Assembly (NCBI GenBank): GCA_965261975.1
Contig: CBDHEC010000050.1
Location: 11,107-75,106 of the forward strand
DNA length: 64,000 nucleotides
Source: Alphaproteobacteria bacterium
Lineage (GTDB): Bacteria; Pseudomonadota; Alphaproteobacteria; UBA6615
Reading direction: 5' to 3'
In this document: positions 34,841 to 48,712 of the stretch, piece after piece
Layout: every line of letters starts with the position of its first letter
Numbering within the stretch: the first letter of the stretch is position 1
Program-made: the position numbers and the translations under genes
Notes under the pieces: generated by a model
The model's input: only the letters and a program-made list of their open reading frames with translations
What the model was told of the DNA's origin: nothing
Databases searched by the model: none

Positions 34841-35767
34841 TCAGCCCATCAGGGCGCCCACATGGGCAGCCGCAGATTCGCCCAAGGCCGTCAGATCGTA
34901 GCCCCCTTCGAGAGTCGACACGACCCGACCGTCACATACGGCTTCCGCCAAGCGGCGCAGTTCCTCTGTCGCCCAGACAAAGTCCTCCGTCTCAAGCGAC
35001 AGCTGCGCCAGCGGATCTCGGCGATGCGCATCGAAACCGGCCGAGATCAAAATCAGGTCCGGCCCGAAATTCCGCATGGCCGGCAAAACCACGTCACGCA
35101 TCGCGGTCCGAAAATCATCCGACCCCGCGCCGGGCCATAGCGGCGCATTGGCGATATTGCCATGTGCACCGGTTTCATTCTTGTCGCCCGTGCCCGGATA
35201 GAGCGGCCATTGATGGGTCGAGGCGTAGAACAGCCCCGGCTCGTTCCAGAACATGGCCTGGGTGCCGTTGCCATGATGGACGTCGAAATCCATCACGGCG
35301 ACACGTTCCGCCCCATGTGCCACGCGCGCATGCTCGGCACCGATCGCCACGCTGTTGAACAGGCAGAAGCCCATCCCCTGGCTCGGCTCGGCATGGTGCC
35401 CCGGCGGCCGCATGGCGCAGAAGGCATTGTCGGCCGCACCTGACATCACCGCGTCGACCGCCTCCACCATGGCGCCCGCGGCGCGCAGCGCCGCCTCGCC
35501 GGATTTTGGCGACATGAGTGTGTCGGCATCGATCCGGCTAACCCCCTCGGTCGGCACCAGATCGAACACCCTGGCCACATAGTCTTCCGGATGTACCAGG
35601 GTCAGATGTTCGCGCCTCGCCTCAGCGGGAGTGTGGCGTTCGAGACCATCGAAGGCGGGGGCCGCCAGGACCTCGGCGATCGTGCGCAATCGGTCGGGTG
35701 ATTCCGGGTGTCCCGATGCGGGTTCATGTTCGATGCAGACCGGGTGGAAATAGAAGCGGGTCGTCAT
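34841..35767 (-). CDS. Histone deacetylase family protein
   Basis: HPESPDRL, RPPGHHAE, GFCLFN, DFDVHHGNGT, SAGFDAH, LEGGY. Confidence 0.95.
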   Translation of the reverse strand: MTTRFYFHPVCIEHEPASGHPESPDRLRTIAEVLAAPAFDGLERHTPAEARREHLTLVHPEDYVARVFDLVPTEGVSRIDADTLMSPKSGEAALRAAGAMVEAVDAVMSGAADNAFCAMRPPGHHAEPSQGMGFCLFNSVAIGAEHARVAHGAERVAVMDFDVHHGNGTQAMFWNEPGLFYASTHQWPLYPGTGDKNETGAHGNIANAPLWPGAGSDDFRTAMRDVVLPAMRNFGPDLILISAGFDAHRRDPLAQLSLETEDFVWATEELRRLAEAVCDGRVVSTLEGGYDLTALGESAAAHVGALMG

Positions 35768-35893
35768 GCGCCGACTCCGGATTGATTGGGCATGGCGCCA
35801 TTGTAACGGCCGGAACGCCATGGCGACAGGGACGCGATTTGCACCCTAGCCGTTGGCGAAATTGTGACAAACAGCACGGCTATATCGGTCTTA

Positions 35894-35927
35894 GCCAATT
35901 GACATATATTGGCGCGCGGCGTGTTCT
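35894..35927 (+). promoter_or_regulatory. Candidate sigma70 promoter of the RND operon with overlapping palindrome
   Basis: TTGACA at 35899-35904, 17-bp spacer, TGTTCT at 35922-35927. GCCAAT-N8-ATTGGC (35894-35913) overlaps the -35 element. Confidence 0.45.
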
Positions 35928-35986
35928 CCTCGCCAATAGTGCAACCGACGTGTACAGCACCGTATCGTTCCTGGAGATGTTACGTG

Positions 35987-37576
35987 ATGAACGCTCGAAA
36001 ACTTCGAACCGCAACCCTCCCCGGCGCGGCCATATTCGTAGCGGGTGCGTTATTCACCGCGCCCGCCCTGGCCCAGACACCCGAGCTTTCGGGTCCCGCC
36101 CAGGCACTCGATACCAACAGTAACGGGTTGATCGAACGCGCAGAGGCGCGCGGCCCGGCGGCCGCCAATTTCGACACGATCGACCTGGACAAGAGCGACA
36201 CCCTCGACGGCAACGAACTTCGCCACTTCTTCGCCGGTGGCCCCCGGCCCGAACCCAGGACCGCTGCCGCCAGCACGCCCGCCGAACCACTTGCCGGACC
36301 GGCGGTGGCAATGGATGCCAACAGCAACGGAACCATTGAGAAGAACGAGGCCCAGGGGCCGGCTGCATCCAACTTCGATACGATTGATCTCGACAAGAGC
36401 GGCACCCTCGACGGGTCGGAACTGCGCTACTTCTTCCGGGGCGGCGAACGCCCCGGCGGCCCGGCGAAGGCCGACAACGCAGACGCAAAACCCTCGGGCG
36501 GCGCGCCGGGTGGACCGCCACCTGCGCGCGTTGTTCTCGACAAGGTCATCGAAGAGCGGATCGGCCAGACCACCCCCGTCGTGGGCCGTATCGTGGCCCA
36601 ACAATCCGGGCCGATCGCCGCGCGCATCGGCGGCGCGGTTGTGGAAATGCGGGTGGACGTCGGCGACCGGGTCGCGACCGGTGACGTGCTGGCGCAGATC
36701 GACCGCGAACGCATGCAGCTCGAGCGCGACCGTTACGCCGCCATCGTGTCGCAGCAGCGCGCCAACCTGACGGCCGAACGCGCCGACCTCGAGCAGACCC
36801 AGAACGAACTGGACCGCCTGGAGGGCATTCGTAAATCGGCCGCCTTCTCGCAGGCCCGCTTTGAAGATGCGGTCCAGGCCGTTGCGTCCCAGACCGGCTC
36901 GGTCGCCGAAACGCGCGCCCAGTTGGCGCAGGCACAAGCCCAGCTGAAGCGTGCCGACCGAGACCTGACGGACACCGAGATTCGCGCGCCCTACCCCGGG
37001 GTAATCAGCGAGACACACACCGAAATCGGCGCGTATCTGTCGATCGGCAACCCGGTCGCAACCATCATCAACGACCTGAATCTGGAGGTCGAGGCGGACG
37101 TTCCGACCGCCCGGGTCACAAATCTGAGCGACGGGGATGTGGTGAACATCCGAATTCGCGACGGGCAGACCATTCCGGCGACCTTGCGCGCGGTCGTGCC
37201 GGTCGAGAATCCCCGGACCCGGACCCGGCCGGTGCGTTTCACGCCTGATTTTGCCGGCCTGGACGTACCCCTGGCCGACAACCAGAGCGTGACGGTCCTG
37301 CTCCCGGTTGGTGGATCGCGTGATGCCGTCACCGTATCCAAGGATGCGGTCACCCAACGCAACGGACAAAGCATGGTGTTTGTCTCGAACAACGGGCGCG
37401 CCCAGCCGCGCCCCGTGACGACAGGCGAGGCGACCGGCAGCCGGCTCGTCGTGATATCGGGCCTGAAGGTCGGCGACCAGGTCGTGGTGCGCGGCAATGA
37501 GCGGCTGCGTCCCGGCCAGCGCCTCCAGGATGTGGGGGCCAACGGCGGCGCGACGAACGGCAGCGGCGGGGGCTGA
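35987..37576 (+). CDS. RND efflux periplasmic adaptor (MFP) with N-terminal tandem EF-hand pairs
   Basis: GGAG RBS; signal peptide ending PALA-Q; four EF loops; then the MFP: VDVGDRVATGDVLAQID, alpha-hairpin, IRAPYPGVI, VEADVP, TRTRPVR, GLKVGDQVVVRG. Confidence 0.9.
   Translation: MNARKLRTATLPGAAIFVAGALFTAPALAQTPELSGPAQALDTNSNGLIERAEARGPAAANFDTIDLDKSDTLDGNELRHFFAGGPRPEPRTAAASTPAEPLAGPAVAMDANSNGTIEKNEAQGPAASNFDTIDLDKSGTLDGSELRYFFRGGERPGGPAKADNADAKPSGGAPGGPPPARVVLDKVIEERIGQTTPVVGRIVAQQSGPIAARIGGAVVEMRVDVGDRVATGDVLAQIDRERMQLERDRYAAIVSQQRANLTAERADLEQTQNELDRLEGIRKSAAFSQARFEDAVQAVASQTGSVAETRAQLAQAQAQLKRADRDLTDTEIRAPYPGVISETHTEIGAYLSIGNPVATIINDLNLEVEADVPTARVTNLSDGDVVNIRIRDGQTIPATLRAVVPVENPRTRTRPVRFTPDFAGLDVPLADNQSVTVLLPVGGSRDAVTVSKDAVTQRNGQSMVFVSNNGRAQPRPVTTGEATGSRLVVISGLKVGDQVVVRGNERLRPGQRLQDVGANGGATNGSGGG
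36086..36436 (+). repeat. Intragenic direct repeat, 2 x 147 bp (49 aa), at 36086-36232 and 36290-36436
   Basis: LSGPAQALDTNSNGLIERAEARGPAAANFDTIDLDKSDTLDGNELRHFF versus LAGPAVAMDANSNGTIEKNEAQGPAASNFDTIDLDKSGTLDGSELRYFF. Confidence 0.92.
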
Positions 37577-37581
37577 TCGCG

Positions 37582-40500
37582 ATGAACCTGATCTCCGCGT
37601 CCATTCACCGGCCGATCGCGGTTATCGCCGTCGTCATCATGATCATCATGTTCGGCTGGGTGGCGCTGCAGCGCATCCCCATCCAGCTGGCACCGGACGT
37701 ACGCCAGCCGGTGATCATCGTCGACACCTTCTGGCCGGGTGCGTCGCCGCTTGAGGTCGAACGCGAGATCGTCAACCGCCAGGAAGAAGTTCTCAAGGGG
37801 ATCGAGGGTGTGCGCAAGATCGAGAGCCGCGCGCGCACCGGACGCGCGGATATCACGCTCGAGTTTGCGCCGAGCCAGAACATGGACCGCGCGCTTTTGC
37901 TGGTGGCAAACCGGCTCGACCGGGTGAGCGGGTATCCCGAGGAAACCGACGAGCCGACCCTGCGCACGTCGGGCACCGACGACAATCCGATCGCCTGGTT
38001 CGTCCTGCGCCGGCAGGCCGAGAATGACCGGGATCTCCTGACCTATGGCGATTTCCTCGAAGACGTTGTCCAGGAGCGGATCGAACGCATCCCGGGAATC
38101 TCCGGCGTCAACATATTCGGAGAGACCGAACGCGAGATGCGGGTCATCATCGATCCCGAGCAGCTCGCCCAGTTCCGCCTGACAATCGGCGATGTCGTGG
38201 AACGGCTGCGCGCCGAGAATGCTTCGATCTCGGGCGGTGACGTCGAAGAGGGCAAACGCGCCTATGTTGTGCGCACCGAGGGCGATTTCACCACGCCTGA
38301 ACAGGTTCTCGACGTTGTGCTGCGCTCGGATGCCGGGCAGGCGGACGGCCAGATCGGCCGGATCACACTCCGCGATATCGCCCATGTCGAACTCGGTTAC
38401 AAGGAGGCGCGGGCGCTCCCTCACAGGTTTGACGAACGCGCCATGGCATTCAACATGACCCGCGAACAGGGGGCCAACGTCCTGACGGTGATGGACCAGG
38501 TACATCGTGTCGTCGGCGACCTTGCCGAAGGGCCGCTCAACCGGGTCGGCCTGATCGTCGAGAACGTGTTCGACGAGACACTGTATGTGAATTCGGCCAT
38601 CTCCCTGGTGCAGCAAAACATTATCGTCGGCGGCATTCTCGCCGCCCTGATCCTGATGCTGTTCCTGCGATCATGGCGCCCGACCCTCGTTGTTTCGCTT
38701 GCAATTCCGGTCTCGGTGATTGGTTCCTTCGTGGCCATGGCCGCCCTCGGTCGCTCCCTCAACGTCATCAGCCTGGCGGGCATCGCCTTCGCCGTCGGCA
38801 TGGTCGTCGATGCCGCGATCGTCGTGCTCGAGAACATCTTCCGACTGCGCCAGGAGGGTCACTCCCGCGCCGAAGCGGCGCGCCTGGGTGCCTCGCAAGT
38901 GTGGCCGGCCGTGCTCGTGTCGTCCCTGACCACCGTCATGGTGTTCATCCCGATCCTGGTCATGGAGCTCGAGGCCGGACAGCTGTTCCGGGATATCGCG
39001 GTCGCGATCTCCGTCTCCGTCCTTCTGTCGTTGCTGGTCTCGGTGACCGTTATTCCTGCGCTCGCCAACCGCCTGCTCGTGAACAGCGTGGCCGATGGCA
39101 AGAAAGCAACGCGCATCCCCGTCCTCGATGATTTCGCCCACGGGTTCGTGACCTTCTGGCAGGATTTCACCCGGATGGTCGTGCGATCGAAATTGCGTGC
39201 GCTGGTCGTTGTCGGCGCCATCACGCTCGCATCTGGCGCGTTCACCTGGGCCTTCGCACCGAAGCTCGATTACCTGCCGACCGGCAACCGCAATTTCGTG
39301 TTCGGCTTCGTGAACGTGCCGCCGGGATACAATCTCGACACGGTCACCGAGATCACCGAGCGCATCGCGAATCGCACCCGCAGCCTCTGGGCATCGGAGA
39401 CAGGCCCCGAATCCGAGGCCGGTGAACCGCCAAAGTTCCAGCGCTTCATCCGCGTACCCTTTGCCGGCCGCGCCTTCATCGGTGGAACATCCGTCGACCC
39501 GAGCCGTGCCTCGGAGCTGATCCCGGTCCTGCAGAACGCGGGGCGACAGGACCCGGGCGTGCTCACCTTCCCGAGCCAGCCCTCGCTGTTTGGCCGCTCA
39601 CTGGGCAGCGGCCGCACCATCGACGTCGACATTCGCGGGTCGGACCTCGAGCAGATTTACCAAGTCGCCTTCGATGTCTTTATCCGCCTGGCACCCCGCT
39701 TCCCGTTCAGTGACGGCAATCAGGTCCGGCCGATCCCGAGCCTGACCTTGTCCGCACCCGAGGTCCGGGTCGAACCGAACCGCCTGCAACTCGCCGACAA
39801 TGGCCTGTCGGCCCGTGCACTCGGCCAGGCCGTCGACGCCTTCAATGACGGTTTGCGGGTCGCCGAAATAACGGTCGACGGCAAGCGGATTGACCTGACG
39901 CTGACCGGCCCGCCCAACATTATCGATCAAACCCAGGGAATCGGTTCTCTGCCGGTCGTGACCCGGGACGGTCGCATCGTGCCGGTCGAGGGGCTTGCCG
40001 ACGTAAAAATCACCTCGGGCCCGACCGAGGTCAGGCGCGCCGACCGCGCGCGTACGGTACGGCTACAGGTCCGCCCGAACGCGGATACACCGTTACAGGG
40101 CGCATTCGAGCTTATTCAGGAAGAAATCGTCAAACCCATGGAAGAAGCGGGCCTGCCCGAAGGGGTCAGTATCCGGCTGACCGGTACGGCCGACAAGTTG
40201 CTGGAAACCTGGAACGAACTGGTCATCGATCTGATTCTGGCGATCGTGATCGTCTATCTGGTGATGGCCGTCCTGTTCGAGAGCTTTATCTATCCGCTGA
40301 TCATCATGCTCACCGTCCCCGTCGCCGCAGCCGGCGGTATCGCGGGGCTGGCGCTATTGAACATCTGGGTTCTGCAGCCCCTCGACATGCTGACAATGCT
40401 GGGATTCGTAATCCTGACCGGAATCGTCGTGAACAATGCGATTCTGCTCGTCCACCAGACCCTCTATCACATACGCGAAGATGGCATGACGGCAGATGAT

Positions 40501-40764
40501 GCGATCATGCTGGCGACCCAGAACCGGGTCCGGCCGATCTTCATGTCCACGCTCACCTCGGTGTTCGGGATGTTGCCGCTGGTCGTGTTCCCCGGTGCCG
40601 GCTCGGAGCTTTATCGCGGGTTGGGTTCGGTCGTGCTGGGCGGTCTTTCGCTATCGGCCGTCCTCACCCTGGCAATCGTGCCGCCGATGATGTCGATCAC
40701 CGTCGGCTGGCGTGAACGAAACCGTAACAATGAGGTGGACGCGAGCCCGTCGCCCGCATCCTAG
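37582..40764 (+). CDS. RND efflux permease (AcrB/AcrD/AcrF family)
   Basis: 1060 aa; PGASPLEVE, AIPVSVIG, GMVVDAAIVVLENI, LFESFIYPLIIMLTVP, GIVVNNAILLV, RPIFMSTLT. Confidence 0.96.
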   Translation: MNLISASIHRPIAVIAVVIMIIMFGWVALQRIPIQLAPDVRQPVIIVDTFWPGASPLEVEREIVNRQEEVLKGIEGVRKIESRARTGRADITLEFAPSQNMDRALLLVANRLDRVSGYPEETDEPTLRTSGTDDNPIAWFVLRRQAENDRDLLTYGDFLEDVVQERIERIPGISGVNIFGETEREMRVIIDPEQLAQFRLTIGDVVERLRAENASISGGDVEEGKRAYVVRTEGDFTTPEQVLDVVLRSDAGQADGQIGRITLRDIAHVELGYKEARALPHRFDERAMAFNMTREQGANVLTVMDQVHRVVGDLAEGPLNRVGLIVENVFDETLYVNSAISLVQQNIIVGGILAALILMLFLRSWRPTLVVSLAIPVSVIGSFVAMAALGRSLNVISLAGIAFAVGMVVDAAIVVLENIFRLRQEGHSRAEAARLGASQVWPAVLVSSLTTVMVFIPILVMELEAGQLFRDIAVAISVSVLLSLLVSVTVIPALANRLLVNSVADGKKATRIPVLDDFAHGFVTFWQDFTRMVVRSKLRALVVVGAITLASGAFTWAFAPKLDYLPTGNRNFVFGFVNVPPGYNLDTVTEITERIANRTRSLWASETGPESEAGEPPKFQRFIRVPFAGRAFIGGTSVDPSRASELIPVLQNAGRQDPGVLTFPSQPSLFGRSLGSGRTIDVDIRGSDLEQIYQVAFDVFIRLAPRFPFSDGNQVRPIPSLTLSAPEVRVEPNRLQLADNGLSARALGQAVDAFNDGLRVAEITVDGKRIDLTLTGPPNIIDQTQGIGSLPVVTRDGRIVPVEGLADVKITSGPTEVRRADRARTVRLQVRPNADTPLQGAFELIQEEIVKPMEEAGLPEGVSIRLTGTADKLLETWNELVIDLILAIVIVYLVMAVLFESFIYPLIIMLTVPVAAAGGIAGLALLNIWVLQPLDMLTMLGFVILTGIVVNNAILLVHQTLYHIREDGMTADDAIMLATQNRVRPIFMSTLTSVFGMLPLVVFPGAGSELYRGLGSVVLGGLSLSAVLTLAIVPPMMSITVGWRERNRNNEVDASPSPAS

Positions 40765-40809
40765 CAGCGCCTCGCCTTTGATCGGGGACGGCGTTACGAT
40801 GGCACGATC

Positions 40810-41509
40810 ATGAGCGCATCCGGAAACAGCCTCGCAGAAATCCCGTTCCTCGCGCCGCTGAGCGAGTCATCTCGCGCCGCGCTCGAGCAGCGCGCGCGCT
40901 GGGTCCGTTATACGGCCAATGACACAATCATCGACCGCGAGAGCGAATCCCGGGACGTGTTTTTCGTGGTCGAAGGCCGGGTGCGGGTGGTGAATTTCTC
41001 GATTTCCGGACGCGAGATCAGTTTCGACGAAATGGACCCCGGCGGGGTGTTCGGCGAACTCGCCGCACTCGACGGGATGCCGCGATCCGCCGCTGTTGTC
41101 GCACTGGCCGATACCCTCGTCGCGTCTATCTCGCCCGACACGTTCCTGAACCTGCTGCGCGACCACCCGGACCTCGCCATCGGAGTGATGCAGGAACTGG
41201 CAAAGATCGTGCGAGCATCGACCGAACGCATCATGGACCTGAGCACCCTGGGTGCGCTCAACCGGGTGCATTCGGAGATCCTGCGCGAAGCGCGCGCCCA
41301 TGCCGAGGACGGCGCCAACACCGCCCGCATCACGCCCATCCCGGTACATGCGGATATTGCCGCGCGGGTCAGCACGACCCGCGAGACGGTTGCGCGCGTC
41401 CTGACGCGATCTCACCAAACAAGGTTTGGTCAAACGCGAGAAAAATGCCCTCGCCATCCTCGACCTCGAACGTCTCGAGGACCTTGTTGAGGAAGTTCGG
41501 GACTTTTAA
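40810..41509 (+). CDS. Crp/Fnr family cyclic-nucleotide-binding regulator, frameshift near 41405
   Basis: FGELAALDGMPRSA cNMP pocket; HTH HADIAARVSTTRETVARVL. Removing one base restores (S)DLTKQGLVKREKNALAILDLERLEDLVEEVRDF and a stop at 41509. Confidence 0.9.
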
Positions 41510-41549
41510 GCCCCTGACTCAACTGCATTTTCGATTTTTTTCCCCGCCC

Positions 41550-41592
41550 TGTGACGTCCGTCACTGGGGAATGTCCCTTCGCGCATTAAGTT
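41550..41592 (+). promoter_or_regulatory. CRP-type box with class II promoter geometry
   Basis: TGTGA-CGTCCG-TCACT (41550-41565; 9/10 to consensus). TAAGTT at 41587-41592 is the -12 to -7 hexamer if the box centre is at -41.5, giving +1 at A41599. Confidence 0.75.
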
Positions 41593-41643
41593 TGGATCAA
41601 TGGCGACGGATCATCGCCACACACCAACGAAACGGAGCCGACC

Positions 41644-41733
41644 ATGTCACGACAAACCCGCATCAACGTCGCCGCCCTCCTCCTGGCAGCCCCGATGGTG
41701 ATCGTCGGAATGTCGCTGACGTCCGGCTTCTGA
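41644..41733 (+). CDS. Unannotated 29-aa membrane peptide MSRQTRINVAALLLAAPMVIVGMSLTSGF
   Basis: GGAG 7 nt before ATG; basic N-terminus then a hydrophobic helix; upstream promoter and downstream terminator present. Confidence 0.65.
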   Translation: MSRQTRINVAALLLAAPMVIVGMSLTSGF

Positions 41734-41740
41734 TTTCAAC

Positions 41741-41817
41741 CGGTGTGATCTTTTCGCACTGATCCAACCTCCTCCTGGACTTGCGGCCGGCTCTCTCGAG
41801 ACCGGCCGCTTTCTTTT
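41741..41817 (+). ncRNA. Candidate 3'UTR sRNA with CCUCCUCC anti-SD loop (cuckoo/CcsR-like motif)
   Basis: Three successive hairpins: CGGTGTGA/TCGCACTG (41741-41761), TCCA-[ACCTCCTCC]-TGGA (41763-41779), and the terminator. Confidence 0.5.
41783..41817 (+). terminator. Rho-independent terminator
   Basis: GCGGCCGG/CCGGCCGC stem followed by TTTCTTTT. Confidence 0.8.
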
Positions 41818-41851
41818 CCAGCCTTGCAATGCGGACAACCCGCACGAAGGA

Positions 41852-43318
41852 TCAGAATGTCCAGCGGCGGTTGAGCCCGATCGACAACCGATAATTGTTG
41901 TAGGTGTAGTTCGTGATCGATGAGACCTGTCGATACGCCTCACCACCGAATGTGAAGGTGAAAGGCTCCCAGAATTCGCCCGCATCGGTAAACACGCTGC
42001 CCCACGGAATACCGTAGGTCAGCCGTGCACGCCCGCCCTAGTCACGCCGCTTCCGCGAGCTGATCGACGGGTCGCGATCATCATACTGGTCGTAGTTGAC
42101 GGTGAGCGATGTGAGCAAGAAATCGCCACCGCCGAACAACATCGTATGGCTTACCCCGAGGTCGCTCTGTTCGGAGGAATTGAAACTGCGGGCCGCAATA
42201 TTTCGGGTCTGTGTAAACGTGACCCCCTGCCGCTGCCGCGGGGTCAGAATCTGAGACATTCCCAACTTGCCTTCATACTCACGGCCGCTGCGTTCCGTCG
42301 CGGTCAGGCTGTTGGTGATGTTGTTGTAGGACTGATACTTCATCGTCGCACCGGCGAAGACCGACCAGGTGTTGGACAGCGCATAGACCCAGTCGACCGT
42401 CGCGCCCGCCGCCGTCAGATACTTCTCGCGCGAAAGATCAATGCGCTCGTAGAGAAGGCGCGGCGTGATGGTCGACGGCGCAAAGTCCAGTTCGTATCCG
42501 AAGTCCGCGGTGATGGCGCGCAGATCGAGATCATCCTGCTGAATCTGTTCGCCCTGGTACAAAACCAGCCCACCCAGCATCTTGTGCTGCTTCTGCAGGC
42601 CGAGGTCATGCTCGAATGACAGCTGCGCCAAACCGTTCAGCGCCAAATCGTCCTGACGCGAAGAACTGCCGGTCGTGCGGGTCGGCAAATCGGCGGCGAG
42701 GCGAATCTCTGATTTCGGGGACGCGTTGCGGTTCCAGTCATACTGGGTGGCAAAATTCATCGCGAAGGTGAAGATCGTCTTCTTGCGGCGTGACGCGATC
42801 TGATCGAGATACTGATCGATCTGGCGGCGCAGTTTCGGATCCAGTTCAAGTTCCTTCAGCGAGACCAGTTCACGCTCGGCCTCGTCGAGGTTATCGAGAC
42901 GAAAAAGGACGATCGCGAACAGAACCCGCACGACCGCCAGGTCCGGGCGGATCAGAAGAACACGTTCCAGCGTCGCGCCCGCACCGCGCACATTTCCGTC
43001 GCGGATCTGGGTCAACGCATACCGGACATTGAGTTCGATATTGTCGGGGTCTTCCAGGACCTGCTGGTACGTGACCGGTGGCCCTTTGCTGAAGGCCTCC
43101 AGATCGAGTGCGTCCTGGGCCGTGCGGTCGACCTCGCGCTGGGACTCGATCGATTCCCGGACATCGGTTTCACGCGATTCCGTATCCGACTGCTGGGCAT
43201 GCGCAGGCCACGCGATCATGATCGCGCCGACAATCACCCATCCATAGCGGATACCGCACCGCGCGTGCTGAAACACACGCAATGGCAGACTTGGCACTCG
43301 AACCAACGAAACCCCCAA
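41852..43318 (-). CDS. TPR + beta-barrel outer membrane protein (Slam/DUF560/NsrA-like) with internal TAG at 42038-42040
   Basis: Signal peptide (PAHA-QQ), TPR (ATLERVLLIRPD...), YDWNRN, alternating beta-strands. The frame continues past the TAG for 61 codons and ends YRLSIGLNRRWTF, a BAM beta-signal. Start uncertain. Confidence 0.8.
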
Positions 43319-43389
43319 CGTATCGGGGTATTAAGCATGATGCGCCAAATCGGGGCAAGCGCGAGAGGCGTCTCTAACCCCTTGAGAAA

Positions 43390-44711
43390 TCATTTCATTT
43401 CTGCGACGTGAACGCCTTTCCAATCCTCGGGCGGGGGATCGAAGGAGTAGTGGAAAATACGCTCGGCATAGAGATCATAGAAACCCGTAATAGCCCCGGG
43501 CATTTCCACGCAAACATTGAGCAGGTCCTGCGCCTTGTCCCAGTCGCGGGCCCGATAGGCATCGAGCATACGCACATGCTCGCGTTGCAAGGCCTGAAAT
43601 GCCTCGCTGGCCGCCTCGCGGGCATCCCCCACCAACGCATAAATGCGAACCGCCTCTCGCTTGCCCTTTACGGCGATCAGGTCGAGCTCAAGGAAGGCGA
43701 AACTGTCGGCCACCTGAGATTGCGTGGATTCACCGACAATTATCGGCGTCGCATAGGGCTGTGACTGCCCTTCAAGCCGGGCGGCGAGATTGACCGCATC
43801 GCCGAGCACCGAATAGTCGAAACGCTGATCCGACCCCATATTCCCGACAACGCATTCCCCGGTGTTGAGCCCAACCCCAACCGCTATGGCAACCGCATCA
43901 GGATTTTCCGCGAGGCGCGCCTCATTGACCCGATCGAGCGCGTCCAGCATGGCCAACGCGGCATCACAGGCATGGGCGGCGTGTGCCGGATCGTCAATCG
44001 GCGCATTCCAGAACGCCATGATGCAGTCGCCCATATACTTGTCGATGGTGCCGTCGCGATCCAGGATTTCGGCGGTCAGCGGCGTGAGCAGGCGGTTGAT
44101 CAGGGTTGTCAGCGCCTGCGGATCATCACGATGTTCCTCGGAAATGGATGTGAACCCCCGGATATCGCAGAACAGCAATGTCATCTCACGGGTCTCGCCA
44201 CCCAGCCTGAGCCGTTCGGGCTGATCGGCAAGCTGTTCGACCAGCGCCGGCGACAGATACTGCCCGAAGGCCGTGCGAATCTGGCGGCGCTGCGTTTCGG
44301 ATTGCAGATAGGTGATGAGCGAACTCGACAGATAGACCATCAGCACAACCAGCGCCGGAAATACCGGGTCAATCAGAATTCCGGCGCCGGAAAAAGCGAA
44401 CCACCCCGCCGCCACCCCGGCCGTGATCGCCGCCAGGCATACAACCGCACTGGCCGCGACACCGAGTTTGGGAAGCAAAAGCACCAGAAAAATACCCAGC
44501 AGCGCGAATGCCGCCAGTTCCGCACCCAGGGTCCAGTCGGGACGCGTCAGAAAACTGCCGTTCAGGATCTGCTCGACCAGCTCTGCATGGAAATCGACCC
44601 AAACACGATCAGCGTCGTCACGCTCAAACGATCCGTGGCATGATCTGTCTGGGCGGCCGTATCATCCTCCGCGGTCATCTGTTCGCGTTTCGGGACAAAC
44701 CCGTTCCCCAT
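43390..44711 (-). pseudogene. CHASE2-type adenylate cyclase lacking most of the CHASE2 sensor
   Basis: HAELVEQILNGSFLTRPDW (CHASE2 end), three TM segments, RTAFGQYLSPALVEQL, LFCDIRGFT, DKYMGDCIMAFWNAP, RFDYSVLGDAVNLAARLEG. The upstream frame hits a stop, and the plausible N-terminus is out of frame. Confidence 0.8.
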
Positions 44712-44877
44712 CACTTGTCCACTCGACACCCCCGCCGAATTCTAGATATAGCTCTTGGGAAGGCATGTGGCTGTAACGTAATTGTCAACGCGCGTGGCAT
44801 GATGATCCAACGCCCGAACTTGTGAGGGCGCACATAGAACAAGGCCCCAAGAAGATACGAGATCACACACCCGTCGA

Positions 44878-46350
44878 ATGAACACCGTCCCCGCACACGC
44901 ACAAACACTCGAGGCGCTCGAAGCGCGCGTCCGCCATGAGCTGACGCTGCTCGACCACCCGAAAGCCGAATGGGTCCCGCCGCGCAAAGACGCATCGGGA
45001 AAGCATGTCTACGACGTGCTGGTTGTCGGCGCCGGCCAGAGCGGCCTAGGGACCCTGTTCGCGCTGGGTCGCGAGAAAGTGACGAATATTCTGGCTGTGG
45101 ACCGAAGCCCTGCCGGCCGCGAAGGCCCCTGGGTCACTTATGCCCGCATGCACCAGCTGCGCACCCACAAGGACATCACCGGCCCCGCGCAGGGCATCCC
45201 GTCACTGACACCGCGCGCCTGGTACACAGCCAAATACGGCCCCGACGCCTGGGAGGCGTTGGTCCGGATTCCACGCACGGACTGGCAGGAATACCTGAAC
45301 TGGTATCGGCATATCCTCGACCTGCCGGTCTGGAGCGAGACCGAGGTCGGCCCGCTTACCGCGGCCGAACCGGACAATCCCGACAGCCTGATCCGGGTGC
45401 CCCTGACGGCGACAGGGCCGAACGGCCACACCGAAAGCGTCCTCGCGCGTGAAGTCGTGCTCGCCAACGGGCTCGAGGGATGCGGCGAGTGGCACGTCCC
45501 CAAGATCGTGACGGACAACCTGCCCGTCGATCGCTACACCCAGGCCAACACGGAATTCGACCTGTCGCCGCTTCGCGGCAAACGGGTCATCGTGATCGGC
45601 GCGAATGCCGGCGGATTCGATTCCGCCGCGGCGGCGCTGGAAGCCGGCGCGGCATCGGCCGACCTCCTCGTGCGGCGGGACGAAATCACCCGGGTGAACG
45701 CGCATAAACCCATCGATAGCGTTGCCTGGCTCAAGCATTTCGGCGATCTCGACGACGCCACGAAGTGGCGCCTGATGGTGCATGTGATGCGGAACAATCA
45801 ACCGCCGCCGCAGGACACGTTCGACCGAGCCGCGAACATGCCGGGTTTCCGCATGCGCGAAGGTGCGGGGATGACGGCAGCGTATATGGCGGATGACGAG
45901 GTGATTATCGAAACGGCTGCGGGCGACAGGCTGCGGGCGGATTTCGTCATCGCCGCAACCGGCTTCGCCAACGATTTCAGCCTGCGGATCGAAACCTCCG
46001 AGATCGCCGACAAGATCGCGCTCTGGCGCGACAGCTACACGCCGCCGGACGGCGAGGACTGGGCGCCGATGGGGACCTACCCCTATCTCGGAAAATCCTT
46101 CGAGTTCACAGAGAAAACGCCGGGCACCGCGCCTTGGCTGCACCACATCCATTGCTTCTCCCTGGGCACCAAGCCGAGCCTCGGGCTGTCGGCCGCCTCG
46201 GCGACCGCCATGCGCTATGGCGTGCCCCGGCTGGTCCAGGCGCTAACGCGCTGCCTGTTTCTCGACGACGCGGCGCATCACGCCAACGCAATGCTGACCT
46301 TCGATGAGGAAGACCTGATCGTCACCTCCAGAGAGGCCGACAACGCCTAG
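44878..46350 (+). CDS. FAD/NAD(P)-dependent oxidoreductase (HpyO-like flavin monooxygenase)
   Basis: VVGAGQSG, EGPWVTYARMHQLRT, RIPRTDWQEYLNWY, second dinucleotide motif IGANAGGFD, AATGF, PYLG..FEF.EK. Confidence 0.85.
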   Translation: MNTVPAHAQTLEALEARVRHELTLLDHPKAEWVPPRKDASGKHVYDVLVVGAGQSGLGTLFALGREKVTNILAVDRSPAGREGPWVTYARMHQLRTHKDITGPAQGIPSLTPRAWYTAKYGPDAWEALVRIPRTDWQEYLNWYRHILDLPVWSETEVGPLTAAEPDNPDSLIRVPLTATGPNGHTESVLAREVVLANGLEGCGEWHVPKIVTDNLPVDRYTQANTEFDLSPLRGKRVIVIGANAGGFDSAAAALEAGAASADLLVRRDEITRVNAHKPIDSVAWLKHFGDLDDATKWRLMVHVMRNNQPPPQDTFDRAANMPGFRMREGAGMTAAYMADDEVIIETAAGDRLRADFVIAATGFANDFSLRIETSEIADKIALWRDSYTPPDGEDWAPMGTYPYLGKSFEFTEKTPGTAPWLHHIHCFSLGTKPSLGLSAASATAMRYGVPRLVQALTRCLFLDDAAHHANAMLTFDEEDLIVTSREADNA

Positions 46351-46361
46351 CTCTGGTGCCT

Positions 46362-46970
46362 TTAGCCGGGGATATGGGCGAACGCTTCTTCGGGTACGAA
46401 ATCGAGCTGACCCGAGCCGCCGGGCTTGAGCCAGTAGAGCTCCAGGGTCGAGGTGACGCGTTTCTCGAAGTAAAGCAGTTGCAGCGGATACCAACCCGGT
46501 GTCGTGATCTCGACGGGCGTGAGTTCCGAGAAACGGTCGCTGTGGACATCGGGATCATACACGACACGGACGCCGCCGATCTTCAGGTCAACGCCGTCGT
46601 TGGACCGCATGGCGATCGTATATGTGCCCGCCGCGGGAAAGTTGATGTAGCCGCGAATATCCGCGCCGACCTCGTCCGCGCGCCCGCTGGTCAGGACATC
46701 GCCGTCACCCACGAAATAGTCGAGGATCAGGATCGGTTCACCCTTCACCCCGTCCTTGTATTTCGCCCAATCCTCTATCTCGCGCGTGTCGTTGAACACG
46801 CCGAAATAATATGTGACCGCGAGCCCCGGTTTCAGGTCGGCTGCCGCGGGCTGTGGCGTAGCCGGTTGCAGCCCGGACACGAGATCGGCAGCGATCCCGT
46901 TCGACGCGCCAAAACCCAGACTACCGGCCATAAACGCTGCGGCGATGATACCGGTGAAACGAGCCCGCAT
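46362..46970 (-). CDS. Secreted PA14 domain protein
   Basis: Signal peptide, PGLAVTYY, GYINFPAAGTY, SNDGV, GWYPLQLLYFE, LELYW. Confidence 0.85.
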   Translation of the reverse strand: MRARFTGIIAAAFMAGSLGFGASNGIAADLVSGLQPATPQPAAADLKPGLAVTYYFGVFNDTREIEDWAKYKDGVKGEPILILDYFVGDGDVLTSGRADEVGADIRGYINFPAAGTYTIAMRSNDGVDLKIGGVRVVYDPDVHSDRFSELTPVEITTPGWYPLQLLYFEKRVTSTLELYWLKPGGSGQLDFVPEEAFAHIPG

Positions 46971-47272
46971 CAGTGGCCCCCGTCAGGGTTGCCAAACGTC
47001 CAGTTCCAGGGACGAATTTCGACTTCCGTGAACAGACCGGCCAGGGAATAGGGGTCGTCGGCAGCGAAATCACGCGCCTTCTCAATGTCGTCCGCCTCGA
47101 CAACGATGAGCGAACCCGTGACACGCGATCCGTCTTCGCTGGGGGTTGGTCCGGCCAGATGCAGCTTCACGTCCTTGCCGTGTGCACGCAGATAGTCGAG
47201 ATGAGCCTCGCGCGTCTGGTTGCGCAACTCGATGCCGTCTTCCCTGTCGGTATTGACGATGATGAAATGCAT
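46970..47272 (-). CDS. YciI family protein
   Basis: R..TREAHLDYL, LAGP, GSLIVVEA, DDPY..AGLF. Confidence 0.92.
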   Translation of the reverse strand: MHFIIVNTDREDGIELRNQTREAHLDYLRAHGKDVKLHLAGPTPSEDGSRVTGSLIVVEADDIEKARDFAADDPYSLAGLFTEVEIRPWNWTFGNPDGGH

Positions 47273-47310
47273 GAAACCCTCCCTCTCCTGTCTGTCTCGC
47301 TCTCGTCGGT

Positions 47311-48520
47311 TTACTTCACCCGTTCGAGCACGGTCGCGATACCCTGGCCGACACCGATGCACATCGTGCAAAGCGCATACTTGGCATCGCGCTCCTTGAG
47401 CTCGTAGGCCGCCGTGGTCGCCAGACGCGCGCCGCTCGCCCCGAGCGGATGGCCGATCGAAATGGCACCGCCGTTGGGGTTCACGTGCTCTGCATCGTCG
47501 GCGATCCCGAGATCACGGGTGACCGCAAGAGCCTGCGCCGCGAAGGCCTCGTTCAACTCGATCACATCGATATCGCCGATCTTGAGACCGAGACGTTCCA
47601 GCAGCTTGTGGGTTGCCGGTGCCGGCCCAAAGCCCATGATCCGCGGCGGCACACCTGCGGTCGCCGTCCCGACAACGCGGGCGATGGGCGTGAGGCCATA
47701 TTTTTCCACGGCGTCTTCCGACGCGATGATCATGGCGCACGCGCCGTCATTCACGCCAGACGCATTGCCGGCCGTGACGGTCCCGCCTTCGCGGAACGGT
47801 GTCGGCAACTTCTCCAGTCCGGCCATATCCGTGCCGGGTCGCGGATGTTCGTCCGTATCGACCACCACCGGGTCGCCGCGGCGCTGGGGCACCTCGACGG
47901 GCACGATCTCCTGCTCGAAGCGCCCGCGTTCCTGGGCCGCTTTCGTGCGCTGCTGCGACCGGAACGCCAGCGCATCCTGATCGGCGCGCGATACCTGGAA
48001 TTCCTCAGCCACGTTCTCCGCCGTCTCCGGCATCGCATCGATGCCGTATTCCGCCTTCATCTTCGGATTGACGAAACGCCAGCCGATGGTCGTGTCTTCG
48101 ACCTGATTGGTTGCGCGAGAACGCGCTGGTCGCTTTGGGCATCACGAAGGGTGCGCGCGACATGCTCTCCACACCGCCGGCAACGACCAGGTCGGCCTCA
48201 CCGGTACGGATCGCGCGCGACGCCGCCGTCAATGCCTCGAGACCGGAGCCGCAAAGCCTGTTCACCGTCGCGCCCGGAACATCGGATGAATATCCCGCCA
48301 GCAGCAGCGACATCCGCGCCACGTTGCGGTTGTCCTCGCCCGCCTGGTTCACGTTGCCGTAGTAGACCTCGTCGACCTTGTCCCAATCAACGCCGGGATT
48401 GCGGTCGACCAGCGCCTTCATGGGAATCGCGCCCAGATCATCCGTCCTGACGCTCGACAGGGAACCGCCATAGCGTCCGAACGGCGTGCGTACCGCGTCA
48501 CAGATATAGGCTTCCGGCAT
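47311..48520 (-). CDS. pcaF: 3-oxoadipyl-CoA thiolase, frameshift near 48105
   Basis: First half: RTPFGRYGG, NQAGEDNRNVARM, NRLCGSG, VESMSRAPFVMPKA. Second half: DTTIGWRF, MPETAENVA, NEAFAAQ, GHPLGASG, CIGVGQG. Confidence 0.9.
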
Positions 48521-48712
48521 TGTTTCTCTCCTGTTTTCAGCCGCGAAACTATTGCATACGAGAATGCCCATACATAGGCCGCCAGGCCAAGCGCGGCCTG
48601 CCGGGGTTCGCCATGCGAACCCTCGATAATGGCCCTGGTTCCGGTATCTCGCGGTCTTGTGCCCAAGAGAATGTGATCACACGCGGCCCGGTGCCGACCC
48701 TATGTTGAGTAC

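What the first reader, a model, noticed from the sequence alone, without database searches (positions are those of the whole stretch)
41550..41817. Hidden CRP-controlled transcript: 29-aa membrane peptide plus anti-Shine-Dalgarno 3' RNA
Seen: 40 bp after the CRP-family gene is TGTGA-CGTCCG-TCACT, and TAAGTT sits exactly where the -10 belongs if the box is at -41.5. Then come a GGAG RBS, a 29-codon ORF with one hydrophobic helix, two hairpins (one with loop ACCUCCUCC) and a strong terminator. Known: E. coli CRP reads TGTGA using R180/E181/R185 (RETVGR), and the adjacent regulator has RETVAR. Alphaproteobacterial cuckoo/CcsR sRNAs expose CCUCCUCC loops and can be processed from 3' UTRs of small-protein genes. 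Inference: this is a dual-output (peptide plus base-pairing sRNA) unit activated by cyclic nucleotide through the neighbouring regulator. Standard annotation would miss it.
Basis: partly seen in the sequence, partly recalled or inferred. Interest (0 to 1): 0.85.

Follow-up and report, generated by a model that had tools for sequence, protein, structure and literature searches.

The report
CRP-box small-peptide gene with sRNA tail
Next to a cyclic-nucleotide-type regulator gene lies a small conserved unit, with a regulator binding site, a 29-residue membrane peptide gene and an RNA tail resembling known ribosome-site-mimicking regulatory RNAs, that recurs in several genera of marine alphaproteobacteria, though the regulator is broken in this genome.

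Summary
Comparison with relatives shows the unit is conserved and not a chance arrangement.

- **Distribution:** the same unit follows the orthologous CRP-family gene in 15 species of 5 genera. It has TGTGA-N6-TCACT, exactly 21 nt, then TAnnT(T/G), a hairpin at the predicted 5' end, an SD, a 29-31 codon ORF, a C-rich unpaired stretch and a terminator.
- **ORF:** it evolves like a coding gene.
- **3' RNA:** in one genus the same promoter drives a 69-nt ORF-less sRNA, so the RNA part probably functions on its own.
- **Promoter:** box plus -10 geometry gives 58 hits in 46 family genomes against 0 for the reversed control. Hits track presence of the regulator, 25 of 30 genomes against 3 of 16.
- **Family assignment:** the RNA tail is not a cuckoo/CcsR RNA. 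Its nearest family is mmgR/alpha-r8, below threshold, and a true mmgR lies elsewhere in this genome.
- **State in this genome:** the regulator is frameshifted, the neighbouring outer-membrane gene has a stop, and the CHASE2 cyclase has lost its sensor half. Cyclic-nucleotide control here is doubtful.
- **Missing evidence:** no expression data could be obtained.

This looks like a new family of probable dual-output RNAs of a known kind.

The parts
35909..40764 (+). MFP (35909-37576) and RND (37582-40764) efflux genes. They lie upstream of the regulator in every genus examined.
   Evidence: ORFs. Pfam ACR_tran E = 2.1e-201. MFP-RND-regulator synteny holds in g1, g11, g12 and g9; for g5 only the RND part and the regulator lie on the contig.
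40810..41509 (+). CRP/FNR-family regulator gene with cNMP_binding and HTH_Crp_2 domains. In this genome it is broken by one extra base at 41405, just after the recognition helix RETVARVL.
   Evidence: Two frames. The extra C is seen only in G000, in alignment A1. tblastn splits the gene into residues 1-199 and 200-232. Pfam on the intact orthologue. The X1 contig is identical; a relative's contig (X10) lacks the base.
41550..41565 (+). CRP-type box TGTGA-N6-TCACT.
   Evidence: The half-sites are invariant in 16 of 16 aligned units while the spacer varies.
41587..41592 (+). -10 hexamer TAAGTT, exactly 21 nt after the box. There is no -35.
   Evidence: TAnnT(T/G) sits at the same offset in 15 of 15 full units. 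Box+N21+TAnnnT gives 58 genomic hits against 0 for the reversed control.
41599..41600 (+). Predicted transcription start, inferred and not measured.
   Evidence: It lies 7 nt after the -10. A conserved hairpin begins 2-3 nt downstream.
41602..41618 (+). 5'-proximal hairpin GGCGA-CGGAUCA-UCGCC.
   Evidence: RNAalifold consensus pairs, columns 3-8 with 17-22, include both-sides changes (UA 4, CG 4). Other genera have a different-sequence hairpin at the same place.
41634..41637 (+). Shine-Dalgarno GGAG, 6 nt before the ATG.
   Evidence: GGAG is invariant in g1 and g11.
41644..41733 (+). 29-codon ORF for a single-helix membrane peptide, MSRQTRINVAALLLAAPMVIVGMSLTSGF.
   Evidence: Variable columns by codon position are 11/2/24 in six congeners, with the stop (TGA, TAG or TAA) at the same place. 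Across 15 species, pairwise differences are 0.395/0.187/0.559 and the only length difference is an in-frame 2-codon gap. No Pfam or NCBIfam family matches.
41741..41761 (+). Post-stop hairpin CGGUGUGA-UCUUU-UCGCACUG.
   Evidence: A hairpin is predicted at this place in 5 of 6 g1 species, only weakly or in part in g11, and in all of g12, g9 and g33. It is absent in G003.
41752..41782 (+). Conserved, mostly unpaired C/U-rich block UUUCGCACUGAUCCAACCUCCUCCUGGACUU. It holds the anti-SD-like CCUCCUCC at 41768-41775.
   Evidence: TTTCGCACTGAYCCAACCTCC is 20 of 21 invariant in six species. It is unpaired in the MFE and in the alifold consensus. Exact matches occur only in 6 of 46 family genomes.
41783..41817 (+). 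Intrinsic terminator: stem-loop 41783-41809 plus U-tail 41810-41817. It could also serve the convergent gene.
   Evidence: The stem is conserved, with one both-sides change.
41852..43318 (-). TPR plus Slam-like outer-membrane gene. In this genome it is interrupted by an in-frame stop near 42028-42030.
   Evidence: Split ORFs. The gene is a contiguous 466 aa in G010. Pfam TPR_19 and SlipAM, the latter at its cut-off.
43390..44598 (-). Class III nucleotidyl cyclase that has lost its CHASE2 sensor half.
   Evidence: tblastn matches only residues 352-753 of the 753-aa G010 protein. CHASE2 plus Guanylate_cyc are both present in G010.

Best explanation
This is a conserved small transcription unit of about 220 nt.

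**Promoter.** A promoter without a -35 carries a CRP-type site, TGTGA-N6-TCACT, centred near -41.5. It is most likely activated by the CRP-family regulator encoded just upstream when that protein binds a cyclic nucleotide.

**Two outputs.** The transcript starts with a protective hairpin. It encodes a 29-31 aa single-helix membrane peptide. It ends in a 3' module made of a hairpin, an unpaired CCUCC-rich stretch and a terminator, which has the architecture of alpha-proteobacterial anti-Shine-Dalgarno sRNAs such as mmgR. This module probably acts, whole or after processing, as a base-pairing RNA on ribosome-binding sites.

**What is shown by comparison:** the conserved promoter geometry, coding selection on the ORF, sequence selection on the 3' block, and co-occurrence of box and regulator.

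**What is inferred:** the transcription start, binding by this regulator, dependence on cyclic nucleotide, translation, processing, and trans-acting function.

**In this genome** the sensory side is degenerate. The regulator is frameshifted, the cyclase truncated and the outer-membrane gene stopped. The unit is therefore probably no longer inducible, or is expressed only by read-through from the MFP-RND-regulator genes.
For: - **Elements present:**
- **Within the genus:** orthologous units occur in 5 of 11 congeners, with invariant half-sites and a free spacer.
- **Across genera:** 22 of the 30 regulator loci were examined. Of these, 15 (genera g1, g11, g33, g12, g9) have the full unit, with the -10 exactly 21 nt after the box.
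- **ORF-less form:** G015 (g5) has box, N21, CATTAT, then a 69-nt sRNA with no ORF, made of a 5' hairpin, an unpaired UUUUCCUCCCUCUCC and a terminator.
- **Coding signature:**
- **Promoter pattern:** 17 hits against 0 control in 5 genomes and 58 against 0 in 46 genomes. Hits occur in 25 of 30 genomes with the regulator and 3 of 16 without it.
- **Regulon:** orthologous promoter sets also precede a FecR-domain gene beside the CHASE2 cyclase, the speH/speE-like operon, and a secreted-protein gene near a cyclase paralogue.
- **Regulator:** it has cNMP_binding and HTH_Crp_2 domains. The FGEL...PRSA cassette is kept in all 19 orthologues in which that stretch is present. The TTRETVARV helix is invariant in 19 of 20. 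Its best solved relatives are GlxR, Clr, Mycobacterium tuberculosis CRP and E. coli CAP.
- **Paralogues:** the only other HTH_Crp_2 protein over the cut-off that is of the CRP/FNR family carries an IETVSR helix.
- **3' block:** unpaired in every fold and 20 of 21 invariant in g1.
- **Likeness to mmgR:** RF00519 scores 15 to 30.9 bits on the units. Alignment to the genome's own mmgR scores 49 against 35.7 +/- 4.6 for shuffles, and 13 of 1000 shuffles reach it.
Against: - **No expression data.** The one RNA run holding related sequence covers only 40955-41170, inside the regulator gene.
- **Start not measured.** The transcription start is inferred from the -10 alone.
- **Scanner negative.** The consensus scanner reports no promoter and no terminator here.
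- **Broken module.** In this genome the regulator is frameshifted, the cyclase lacks CHASE2, and no other regulator with an RE..R helix was found (the genome is 94.6% complete).
- **Box without an intact regulator.** G003 keeps the unit beside a regulator remnant. G009 and G049, where no regulator was found, still have one box each. The box may therefore be read by another factor.
- **Weak structural covariation.** The RNAalifold covariation term is only -0.33 kcal/mol, and apart from the two terminal hairpins the structure rests on few changes.
- **Below every Rfam threshold**.
- **No validated target.** The best candidate is no stronger than chance in match length.
Confidence: 0.62

Rival explanations
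1. The unit is only a small membrane-protein gene. In this reading it is the last cistron of the MFP-RND-regulator operon, perhaps an AcrZ-like accessory of the pump. The CCUCC region would be no more than a 3' UTR plus terminator with no trans-acting role.
For: - MFP-RND-regulator-unit is the arrangement kept in every genus examined, whereas the outer-membrane, cyclase and FecR genes are kept only in g1 and g11.
- By eye there is no terminator-like hairpin between the RND stop, the regulator gene and the unit, so the unit's terminator may end the whole operon.
- The peptide is conserved and has a coding signature.
- Its nearest language-model neighbours are small membrane proteins (YncL, YoaK, PmrR), all below 0.9, so this is a lead only.
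Against: - G015 has the same promoter and a CCUCC sRNA with no ORF at all.
- The 21-nt 3' block is 20 of 21 invariant in six species whose third codon positions vary in 24 of 29 codons. That is more than a terminator needs.
- The 3' layout matches known anti-SD sRNAs.
- The unit has a dedicated internal promoter of conserved geometry.
Confidence: 0.2
2. It is a pure regulatory RNA. The 29-codon frame is not translated and is conserved only as RNA.
For: - An ORF-less form exists in G015.
- G013 carries a divergent ORF without the MSRQTR N-terminus.
- The transcript is strongly structured, z = -5.04.
Against: - Differences by codon position are 0.395/0.187/0.559 across 15 species.
- Stop codons TGA, TAG and TAA sit at the same place.
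- The only length difference is an in-frame 2-codon gap.
- GGAG lies at a constant distance from the ATG.
- The hydrophobic helix is kept through conservative changes.
Confidence: 0.06
3. In this genome the unit is a decaying relic that no longer functions. The cyclic-nucleotide module around it is being lost, as has already happened in several congeners.
For: - The regulator is frameshifted, the outer-membrane gene stopped, the cyclase truncated and the FecR gene absent in G000.
- G007 deleted the stretch from regulator residue 202 to the 3' end of the cyclase, unit included.
- G006 and G008 have broken regulators and no unit.
- In G001, G005 and G009 neither the regulator nor the unit was found.
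Against: - In G000 the box, -10, SD, ORF, 3' block and terminator all match the consensus, with no disabling change.
- Two other box promoters also persist in G000.
- This rival concerns the state in one genome, not the nature of the element.
Confidence: 0.35
4. It is a type I toxin-like hydrophobic peptide gene with its own RNA control.
For: The peptide is short, with a single hydrophobic helix and a charged N-terminus. The mRNA is highly structured.
Against: - No conserved antisense promoter or RNA was seen.
- The unit is single-copy and syntenic, not mobile.
- It is tied to a transcription-factor regulon.
- PADLOC and toxin libraries were not searched.
Confidence: 0.03

Closest known systems
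MmgR / alpha-r8 family (Rfam RF00519 'suhB'), an Hfq-dependent 77-nt trans-sRNA of Sinorhizobium meliloti with an anti-SD motif (passages of PMC7143759)
   Same: - It has an unpaired C/U-rich CCUCC(C) stretch directly 5' of a G+C-rich terminator, preceded by a hairpin.
- RF00519 is the best Rfam match of the orthologous units (30.9 and 27.9 bits) and among the matches in the window (15 bits).
- The blocks CGGUG..., CCUCC, GACUU and GGCCG are shared with the genome's own mmgR.
- The ORF-less G015 form is the same size class.
   Different: - It scores below the 41-bit gathering score everywhere.
- A true mmgR exists elsewhere in this genome (C27:9868-9938, 44 bits).
- Here the module is the 3' end of a peptide mRNA.
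- The promoter is CRP-type, whereas mmgR is reported to be controlled by NtrC and AniA.
- No TGTGA box precedes the genome's own mmgR.
CcsR1-4 / cuckoo RNAs with ccaF1 in Rhodobacter sphaeroides (passages of PMC8034643)
   Same: A small-protein gene is followed in the same transcript by anti-SD RNA, which is released from the 3' UTR. That is the same working principle as proposed here.
   Different: - Each CcsR has two hairpins, each with CCUCCUCCC in the loop. Here there is one motif and it is unpaired.
- The ORF there is a DUF1127 RNA-binding protein. Here it is a membrane peptide with no family.
- The promoter there is RpoHI/HII-dependent.
- The CcsR1 model scores 13.7 bits against 65.3.
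CRP-linked dual-function RNAs of gammaproteobacteria: AzuCR (164 nt, 28 aa), Spot 42/SpfP and VcdRP (29 aa). Seen as search listing and abstracts only. That these are repressed by CRP is recalled, not read.
   Same: One short transcript carries both a small-protein ORF of about 30 codons and a base-pairing region, and is tied to a cAMP-receptor-type regulator.
   Different: - The phylum-level lineage differs and there is no sequence relation.
- Here the site geometry (-41.5, no -35) predicts activation.
- Here the ORF and the pairing region are separate, not overlapping.
- Nothing here has been tested.
NsrA to CHASE2 cyclases (CyaD1, CyaD2, CyaK) to Clr to smc02178 cascade of S. meliloti (passages of PMC13001267 and PMC5498481)
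   Same: In g1 and g11 the locus combines an outer-membrane beta-barrel gene, a CHASE2 cyclase, a CRP-family regulator and an adjacent target gene with the regulator's box in its promoter.
   Different: - The Clr box is TGTT-N8-AACA, relaxed form HGTYHCNNNNGRWACA. Here it is TGTGA-N6-TCACT.
- The adjacent target here is a peptide/sRNA unit. The words sRNA and small RNA do not occur in the main text of PMC5498481.
- Homology of the outer-membrane protein to NsrA was not tested.
- Genera g9, g12 and g5 lack the cyclase and outer-membrane genes at the locus.

Membership tests
CcsR / cuckoo RNA (Rfam RF02791, alpha-r14 kin) | Covariance-model score at or above the gathering score | tested here: not met
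   13.7 bits against 65.3. Nothing reaches gathering score in the whole window.
CcsR / cuckoo RNA (Rfam RF02791, alpha-r14 kin) | Two hairpins, each with CCUCCUCCC in the loop (PMC8034643 passages) | tested here: not met
   There is one CCUCCUCC, and it is unpaired in the MFE and in the alifold consensus.
CcsR / cuckoo RNA (Rfam RF02791, alpha-r14 kin) | Adjacent ORF with a DUF1127 domain (CIN1 context) | tested here: not met
   The peptide matches no Pfam or NCBIfam family at E up to 1.
CcsR / cuckoo RNA (Rfam RF02791, alpha-r14 kin) | sRNA released from the 3' UTR by RNase E | not testable with these tools
   No RNA reads cover the unit.
MmgR / alpha-r8 (Rfam RF00519) | Covariance-model score at or above 41 bits | tested here: not met
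   15.0 bits in the window and 22.7-30.9 bits for the orthologous units. The genome's true mmgR at C27:9868-9938 scores 44 bits.
MmgR / alpha-r8 (Rfam RF00519) | Unpaired anti-SD C/U-rich motif followed by a Rho-independent terminator | tested here: met
   (all 17 sequences folded).
MmgR / alpha-r8 (Rfam RF00519) | Stand-alone sRNA gene of about 77 nt | tested here: not met
   In G000 the module is the 3' end of a peptide mRNA of about 220 nt. Only G015 has a stand-alone 69-nt form.
Class II CRP-dependent promoter | 16-bp inverted repeat TGTGA-N6-TCACA | tested here: met
   TGTGACGTCCGTCACT matches 9 of 10 half-site positions. The half-sites are invariant in 16 of 16 units.
Class II CRP-dependent promoter | Site centred at -41.5, replacing the -35 | tested here: inconclusive
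   The -10 lies exactly 21 nt after the box in 15 of 15 units. This gives -41.5 if transcription starts 7 nt after the -10. The start is not measured.
Class II CRP-dependent promoter | Cyclic-nucleotide-dependent binding and activation by the regulator | not testable with these tools
   Only indirect support: co-occurrence in 25 of 30 against 3 of 16 genomes, and the invariant RETVAR helix and FGEL..PRSA cassette.
CRP/FNR-family cNMP receptor (the neighbouring gene) | cNMP_binding plus HTH_Crp_2 domains in one intact frame | tested here: not met
   Both domains are present in the intact orthologue. In this genome the frame breaks at 41405, after residue 199.
Dual-function RNA | The ORF is translated | tested here: inconclusive
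   The coding-type substitution pattern and the conserved SD support it. There are no translation data.
Dual-function RNA | The same transcript base-pairs with target mRNAs | not testable with these tools
   There is only a lead. An 11-nt plus 8-nt complementarity to the leader of a Porin_4 gene is conserved in 4 of 6 unit-bearing congeners, but it is also present where the unit is absent.

The most novel reading that the evidence does not exclude
The unit is a two-armed output of a cyclic-nucleotide sensing module that retunes envelope permeability. On signal, the CRP-type regulator fires one short transcript. Its membrane peptide modulates the RND efflux pump encoded just upstream, or feeds back on the CHASE2 cyclase. 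Its mmgR-like tail occludes the ribosome-binding site of the major Porin_4 porin mRNA. The leader of that mRNA (GCAAGUCC...GGAGGUUGGAU) is complementary to GGACUUGC and AUCCAACCUCC of the RNA. This would be the first cNMP-CRP-activated dual-function RNA in alphaproteobacteria, and an example of an sRNA (the G015 form) that acquired a peptide ORF.
Probability: 0.12. Interest if true: 0.8.

Novelty: new variant of a known kind. Interest (0 to 1): 0.6.

Why it matters
Few dual-function RNAs are known, and the named examples met in the listing and passages read are mostly from gammaproteobacteria and Firmicutes. Those passages name two alphaproteobacterial cases, rnTrpL of S. meliloti and the candidate Pos19 of R. 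sphaeroides.

This unit would be a family-wide, comparatively well-defined candidate in uncultured marine alphaproteobacteria. It has a clear and testable regulator, a promoter logic (a CRP-type site at -41.5) and a small regulon. It links cyclic-nucleotide signalling through CHASE2 cyclases, so far studied mainly in rhizobial symbiosis, to RNA-level control.

The series from an ORF-less sRNA (G015) to peptide-bearing forms offers a natural experiment on how an sRNA and a small-protein gene come to share a transcript.

For annotation, the work gives a peptide family (M[SK]RQTR[IL]N...ALP...) and an RNA module that no Pfam, NCBIfam or Rfam model matched in these searches.

For this genome alone the finding is more modest: an intact output next to a broken sensor.

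Tried and rejected
- **Rfam:** no family reaches its gathering score in the window. The weak SorY, CcsR1, toxic-sRNA and mmgR matches reflect the shared 'CCUCC plus terminator' layout.
- **Consensus scanner:** it found no promoter and no terminator. The scanner does not model this kind of promoter or a bulged stem.
- **Expression:** 15 runs were listed. Four were laid (X1, X2, X6, X10), and all are contigs. The RNA run X6 covers only 40955-41170, so nothing can be said about transcription of the unit.
- **Peptide relatives:** the word-based search gave 5 proteins, all near-identical and unnamed. The Atlas gave only scores below 0.9. Pfam and NCBIfam gave nothing.
- **Target search by naive duplex energy:** the whole-genome scan stopped at contig C22 on time and was dominated by G+C-rich chance duplexes. 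The scan over 4826 crude start sites did not even include the porin start, and its top hits look like noise. Both are uninformative and were dropped.
- **Exact-complement search:** about ten hits of 11 nt or more turned up, roughly the chance yield. The porin match is therefore kept only as a lead. Its leader is conserved in unit-less genomes too, so that conservation is not explained by this RNA.
- **13-nt match at C7**: not followed, because that part of the RNA varies within g1.
- **Genome-wide box count without the -10:** 8 sites, against roughly 4 by my own composition estimate, which is not from a tool. This is not convincing alone. The box-plus-10 pattern was used instead.
- **Naming the organism:** the genome-contig scan returned only MAGs labelled Alphaproteobacteria or Rhodospirillaceae, plus one likely chance hit in a Gemmataceae MAG.
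- **NsrA homology of the outer-membrane protein:** not testable. The paper PMC5952392 is not held, and no paper holds both 'NsrA' and 'DUF560'.
- **Complex prediction:** not used. The pump (1060 aa) plus peptide exceeds the size limit, and the cyclase is not a conserved neighbour.
- **Closed resources:** Supplementary tables of the Clr regulon papers could not be seen and may list non-coding targets.
- **Loci dropped before the count:** 8 of the 30 loci. L029, L031 and L032 have broken regulators and were examined separately. L053 has no downstream DNA. L066-L069 are partial hits and were not examined.
Full report
**1. What is in the sequence**

- The CRP-family gene runs from 40810. Its natural C-terminus, in another frame, ends at 41509.
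- The box TGTGACGTCCGTCACT lies at 41550-41565, 40 nt after that stop.
- TAAGTT lies at 41587-41592, 21 nt after the box. An A at 41599 would put the box centre at -41.5.
- GGAG at 41634-41637 lies 6 nt before the ATG of a 29-codon ORF (41644-41733, MSRQTRINVAALLLAAPMVIVGMSLTSGF).
- After the stop come a hairpin (41741-41761), a stretch with CCUCCUCC (41768-41775), and a G+C-rich stem-loop with a U-tail (41783-41817).

The 3' part and the whole transcript fold far better than shuffles, at z = -6.06 and -5.04.

One detail fails. CCUCCUCC is not in a hairpin loop. It sits in an unpaired linker.

The simple scanner reports neither promoter nor terminator here. That fits a promoter without a -35 and a bulged terminator stem. 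The unit is single-copy in the genome.

**2. Conservation within the genus**

A DNA search of 40 relatives found full-length orthologous loci in 5 of 11 congeners, at 68-86% identity. In the six-way alignment:
- The half-sites TGTGA and GTCACTGG are invariant while the 6-nt spacer varies.
- The -10 keeps TAnnTT.
- A hairpin GGCGA...UCGCC follows the predicted start.
- The ORF keeps its frame, with TGA, TAG or TAA at the same place.
- A 21-column block, TTTCGCACTGAYCCAACCTCC, is 20 of 21 invariant.
- The terminator is kept.

Variable columns in the ORF fall 11/2/24 on codon positions 1/2/3, which is the pattern of a translated gene.

**3. Conservation across genera**

The regulator has orthologues in 30 of 46 genomes of the family. 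I examined 22 of the 30 loci returned. The other eight are listed under Tried and rejected.

Fifteen loci, from five genera (g1 x6, g11 x4, g33, g12 x3, g9), have the full unit: box, exactly 21 nt, TAnnT(T/G), a 5' hairpin, an SD, a 29-31 codon ORF, a post-stop hairpin in most, an unpaired C/U-rich stretch, and a terminator.

The peptides align as M[SK]RQTR[IL]N.[AT]AL..A.P.., with one in-frame 2-codon gap. Pairwise differences by codon position are 0.395/0.187/0.559.

The 5' hairpin changes sequence but not place: GGCGA/UCGCC in g1, CCGGC/GCCGG in g12 and g33, with both-sides changes in the alifold table.

In g12, g9 and g33 the C-rich stretch reads GAUUCUCCCUCCCCUC.

Other loci differ:
- In G013 (g3) the stretch reads UUCCUCCCUAG and the ORF is divergent.
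- In G015 (g5) the same kind of promoter (AGTGA-N6-TCACT, N21, CATTAT) drives a 69-nt RNA with no start codon. It consists of a 5' hairpin, 28 unpaired nucleotides including UUUUCCUCCCUCUCC, and a terminator.
- Two further loci (G016, G020) have a box but other downstream sequence.
- Three loci (G057, G018, G058) have no box.

The ORF-less form is the strongest argument that the RNA part has a function of its own.

**4. The box is a regulon motif tied to the regulator**

The pattern TGTGA-N6-TCACW-N21-TAnnnT occurs 17 times in five genomes, against 0 for the reversed control. It occurs 58 times in 28 of 46 family genomes, against 0 control hits in all 46.

Hits fall in 25 of 30 genomes with the regulator and 3 of 16 without it. 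The genomes are kin, so this is not an independent-sample statistic.

Besides the unit, orthologous promoter sets precede three other targets:
- A FecR-domain gene next to the CHASE2 cyclase.
- A speH/speE-like operon.
- A secreted-protein gene near a cyclase paralogue.

The regulator has cNMP_binding and HTH_Crp_2 domains. Its closest solved relatives are GlxR, S. meliloti Clr, M. tuberculosis CRP and E. coli CAP. FGEL...PRSA is kept wherever that stretch is present, and TTRETVARV is invariant in 19 of 20 orthologues. The exception is the G003 remnant.

That R, E and R of RETVAR correspond to CAP R180, E181 and R185 is recalled knowledge, not a call result.

In G000 the only other HTH_Crp_2 protein over the cut-off that belongs to this family has an IETVSR helix.

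**5. Genomic setting**

The best congener assembly, G010, shows the intact locus in this order:
- MFP and RND efflux genes.
- The regulator (232 aa).
- The unit.
- On the opposite strand, an outer-membrane gene (466 aa; TPR plus SlipAM at its cut-off).
- A CHASE2 cyclase (753 aa).
- Divergently, the FecR-domain gene with its own box.

MFP-RND-regulator-unit is kept in g1, g11, g12 and g9; for g5 only the RND part and the regulator lie on the contig. The outer-membrane, cyclase and FecR genes are at the locus only in g1 and g11.

By eye there is no terminator between the RND gene, the regulator gene and the unit. The unit may therefore also be reached by read-through.

The arrangement recalls the S. 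meliloti NsrA / CHASE2 cyclase / Clr / smc02178 cascade (passages). The Clr box there is TGTT-N8-AACA, and homology of the outer-membrane proteins was not tested.

**6. State in this genome**

G000 carries one extra base at 41405, which shifts the regulator frame after residue 199. An independent contig build of the probable source run has the same base, at depth about 7.5. A relative's contig lacks it.

The outer-membrane gene has an in-frame stop near 42028-42030. The cyclase retains only residues 352-753. The FecR gene gave no match in the 20 kb of the window searched.

Three kinds of lesion in three neighbouring genes make real decay more likely than assembly error.

Elsewhere in the genus:
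- G007 deleted the stretch from regulator residue 202 into the cyclase, unit included.
- G006 and G008 have broken regulators and no unit.
- G003 keeps the unit beside a regulator remnant.

The unit itself shows no disabling change in G000.

**7. What family is the RNA?**

It is not a cuckoo/CcsR RNA. The model scores 13.7 bits against 65.3. There is one unpaired motif instead of two loop motifs, and the ORF is not DUF1127.

The nearest family is mmgR/alpha-r8. RF00519 gives 15 bits here and 22.7-30.9 bits on the orthologous units, always under 41. The genome has a true mmgR at C27:9868-9938, scoring 44 bits.

A global alignment of the unit's 3' part with that mmgR scores 49, against 35.7 +/- 4.6 for shuffles; 13 of 1000 shuffles reach it. 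This fits distant kinship or convergence, and I do not file it as a member.

The peptide has no family. It has only five near-identical unnamed relatives in the large protein collection, two of them called as 29 aa. Its Atlas neighbours are weak, all below 0.9.

**8. A target lead**

The only exact 11-nt complement of the invariant core AUCCAACCUCC in G000 lies on the SD, 3 nt before the ATG of a Porin_4 porin gene at C46:44875-46035. The same gene carries it in G004, G010 and G011. Eight nucleotides further upstream, GCAAGUCC is complementary to GGACUUGC of the RNA.

Three things argue against weighing this heavily:
- An 11-mer match is about what chance gives once per genome.
- A CCUCC seed favours SD sites by construction.
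- The porin leader is conserved across the family, including unit-less genomes, and in genera whose RNA has another seed.

The energy-based scans were uninformative. I keep the porin as a lead only.

**9. Verdict**

It is wrong on family (mmgR-like, not cuckoo) and on the loop. It is uncertain for this genome because the sensor side is broken.

Nothing about transcription, translation or pairing has been measured.

In kind, this is a new variant of known things: dual-function or 3'-UTR-derived sRNAs, and CRP regulons. It is also the first such candidate I could find tied to a cNMP regulator in alphaproteobacteria. In the passages read, the words 'sRNA' and 'small RNA' do not occur in PMC5498481, and the phrases 'CRP-activated' and 'activated by CRP' do not occur in the review PMC12612679.

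Noticed in passing
window 41852-44598 (- strand): The sensory genes beside the unit are all damaged in this genome. The TPR/Slam-like outer-membrane gene has an in-frame stop near 42028-42030. The cyclase has lost its CHASE2 half. The FecR-domain gene present in G010, G011, G002 and G052 gave no match in the part of the window searched (30001-50000).
   Followed up: yes
G000 contig C3:70467-70700 (outside the window): A second promoter of identical geometry (TGTGACAGTCGTCACA, N21, TAGATT) precedes a long leader that holds GCCUCCCCUC and a strong hairpin. It lies ahead of a speH/speE-like operon. The gene names are my reading of the translated sequence, not a tool result. Orthologous boxes sharing TCACATCGCG occur in g1, g11, g7 and g34.
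   Followed up: partly
G000 contig C8:30288-30330 (- strand): A third box promoter lies upstream of a 244-aa secreted-looking protein with no Pfam family, near a cyclase paralogue at C8:27805-28614. Orthologous boxes occur in G011 and G007.
   Followed up: partly
G000 contigs C27:9868-9938, C36:2864-2939, C24:19781-19858: C27 holds a bona fide mmgR (RF00519, 44 bits). C36 and C24 hold further CCUCC-type sRNA-like sequences below threshold. C36 shows several C-rich motifs in a row. The genome carries a small population of anti-SD RNAs.
   Followed up: partly
G000 contig C46:44800-44875 and orthologues (L105-L129): The leader of the major Porin_4 gene, CGCGGACGCAAGUCC...GGAGGUUGGAU, is conserved across most of the family. 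It contains a GGAC-GCAA-GUCC tetraloop-type hairpin. In four unit-less congeners the SD-adjacent GGAU reads GAAU.
   Followed up: partly
L057 (G022) 2206-2295 and L052 (G056): Palindromic repeat elements with sub-threshold whalefall-1 matches (24.3 and 23.7 bits against 37) are inserted between the regulator stop and the box. They push the box to +132 and +254, while the unit itself is unchanged.
   Followed up: no
window 41404-41407: In run X2, which holds a relative, two contigs end and begin exactly at the site of the G000 frameshift (41404 and 41407). This may be coincidence or local strain variation.
   Followed up: no
G000 contig C8:52153-52371 (- strand): The only other CRP/FNR-type HTH over the Pfam cut-off (helix IETVSR) lies in a 403-aa open frame. 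Its N-terminal part looks like a membrane permease, so this may be a fusion or a truncated FNR-like gene.
   Followed up: no
L010 (G004) 1937-3414 (- strand): The orthologous outer-membrane gene is also split in G004, as two overlapping frames of 95 and 410 aa. Either the gene is error-prone in assemblies or it is decaying repeatedly.
   Followed up: no
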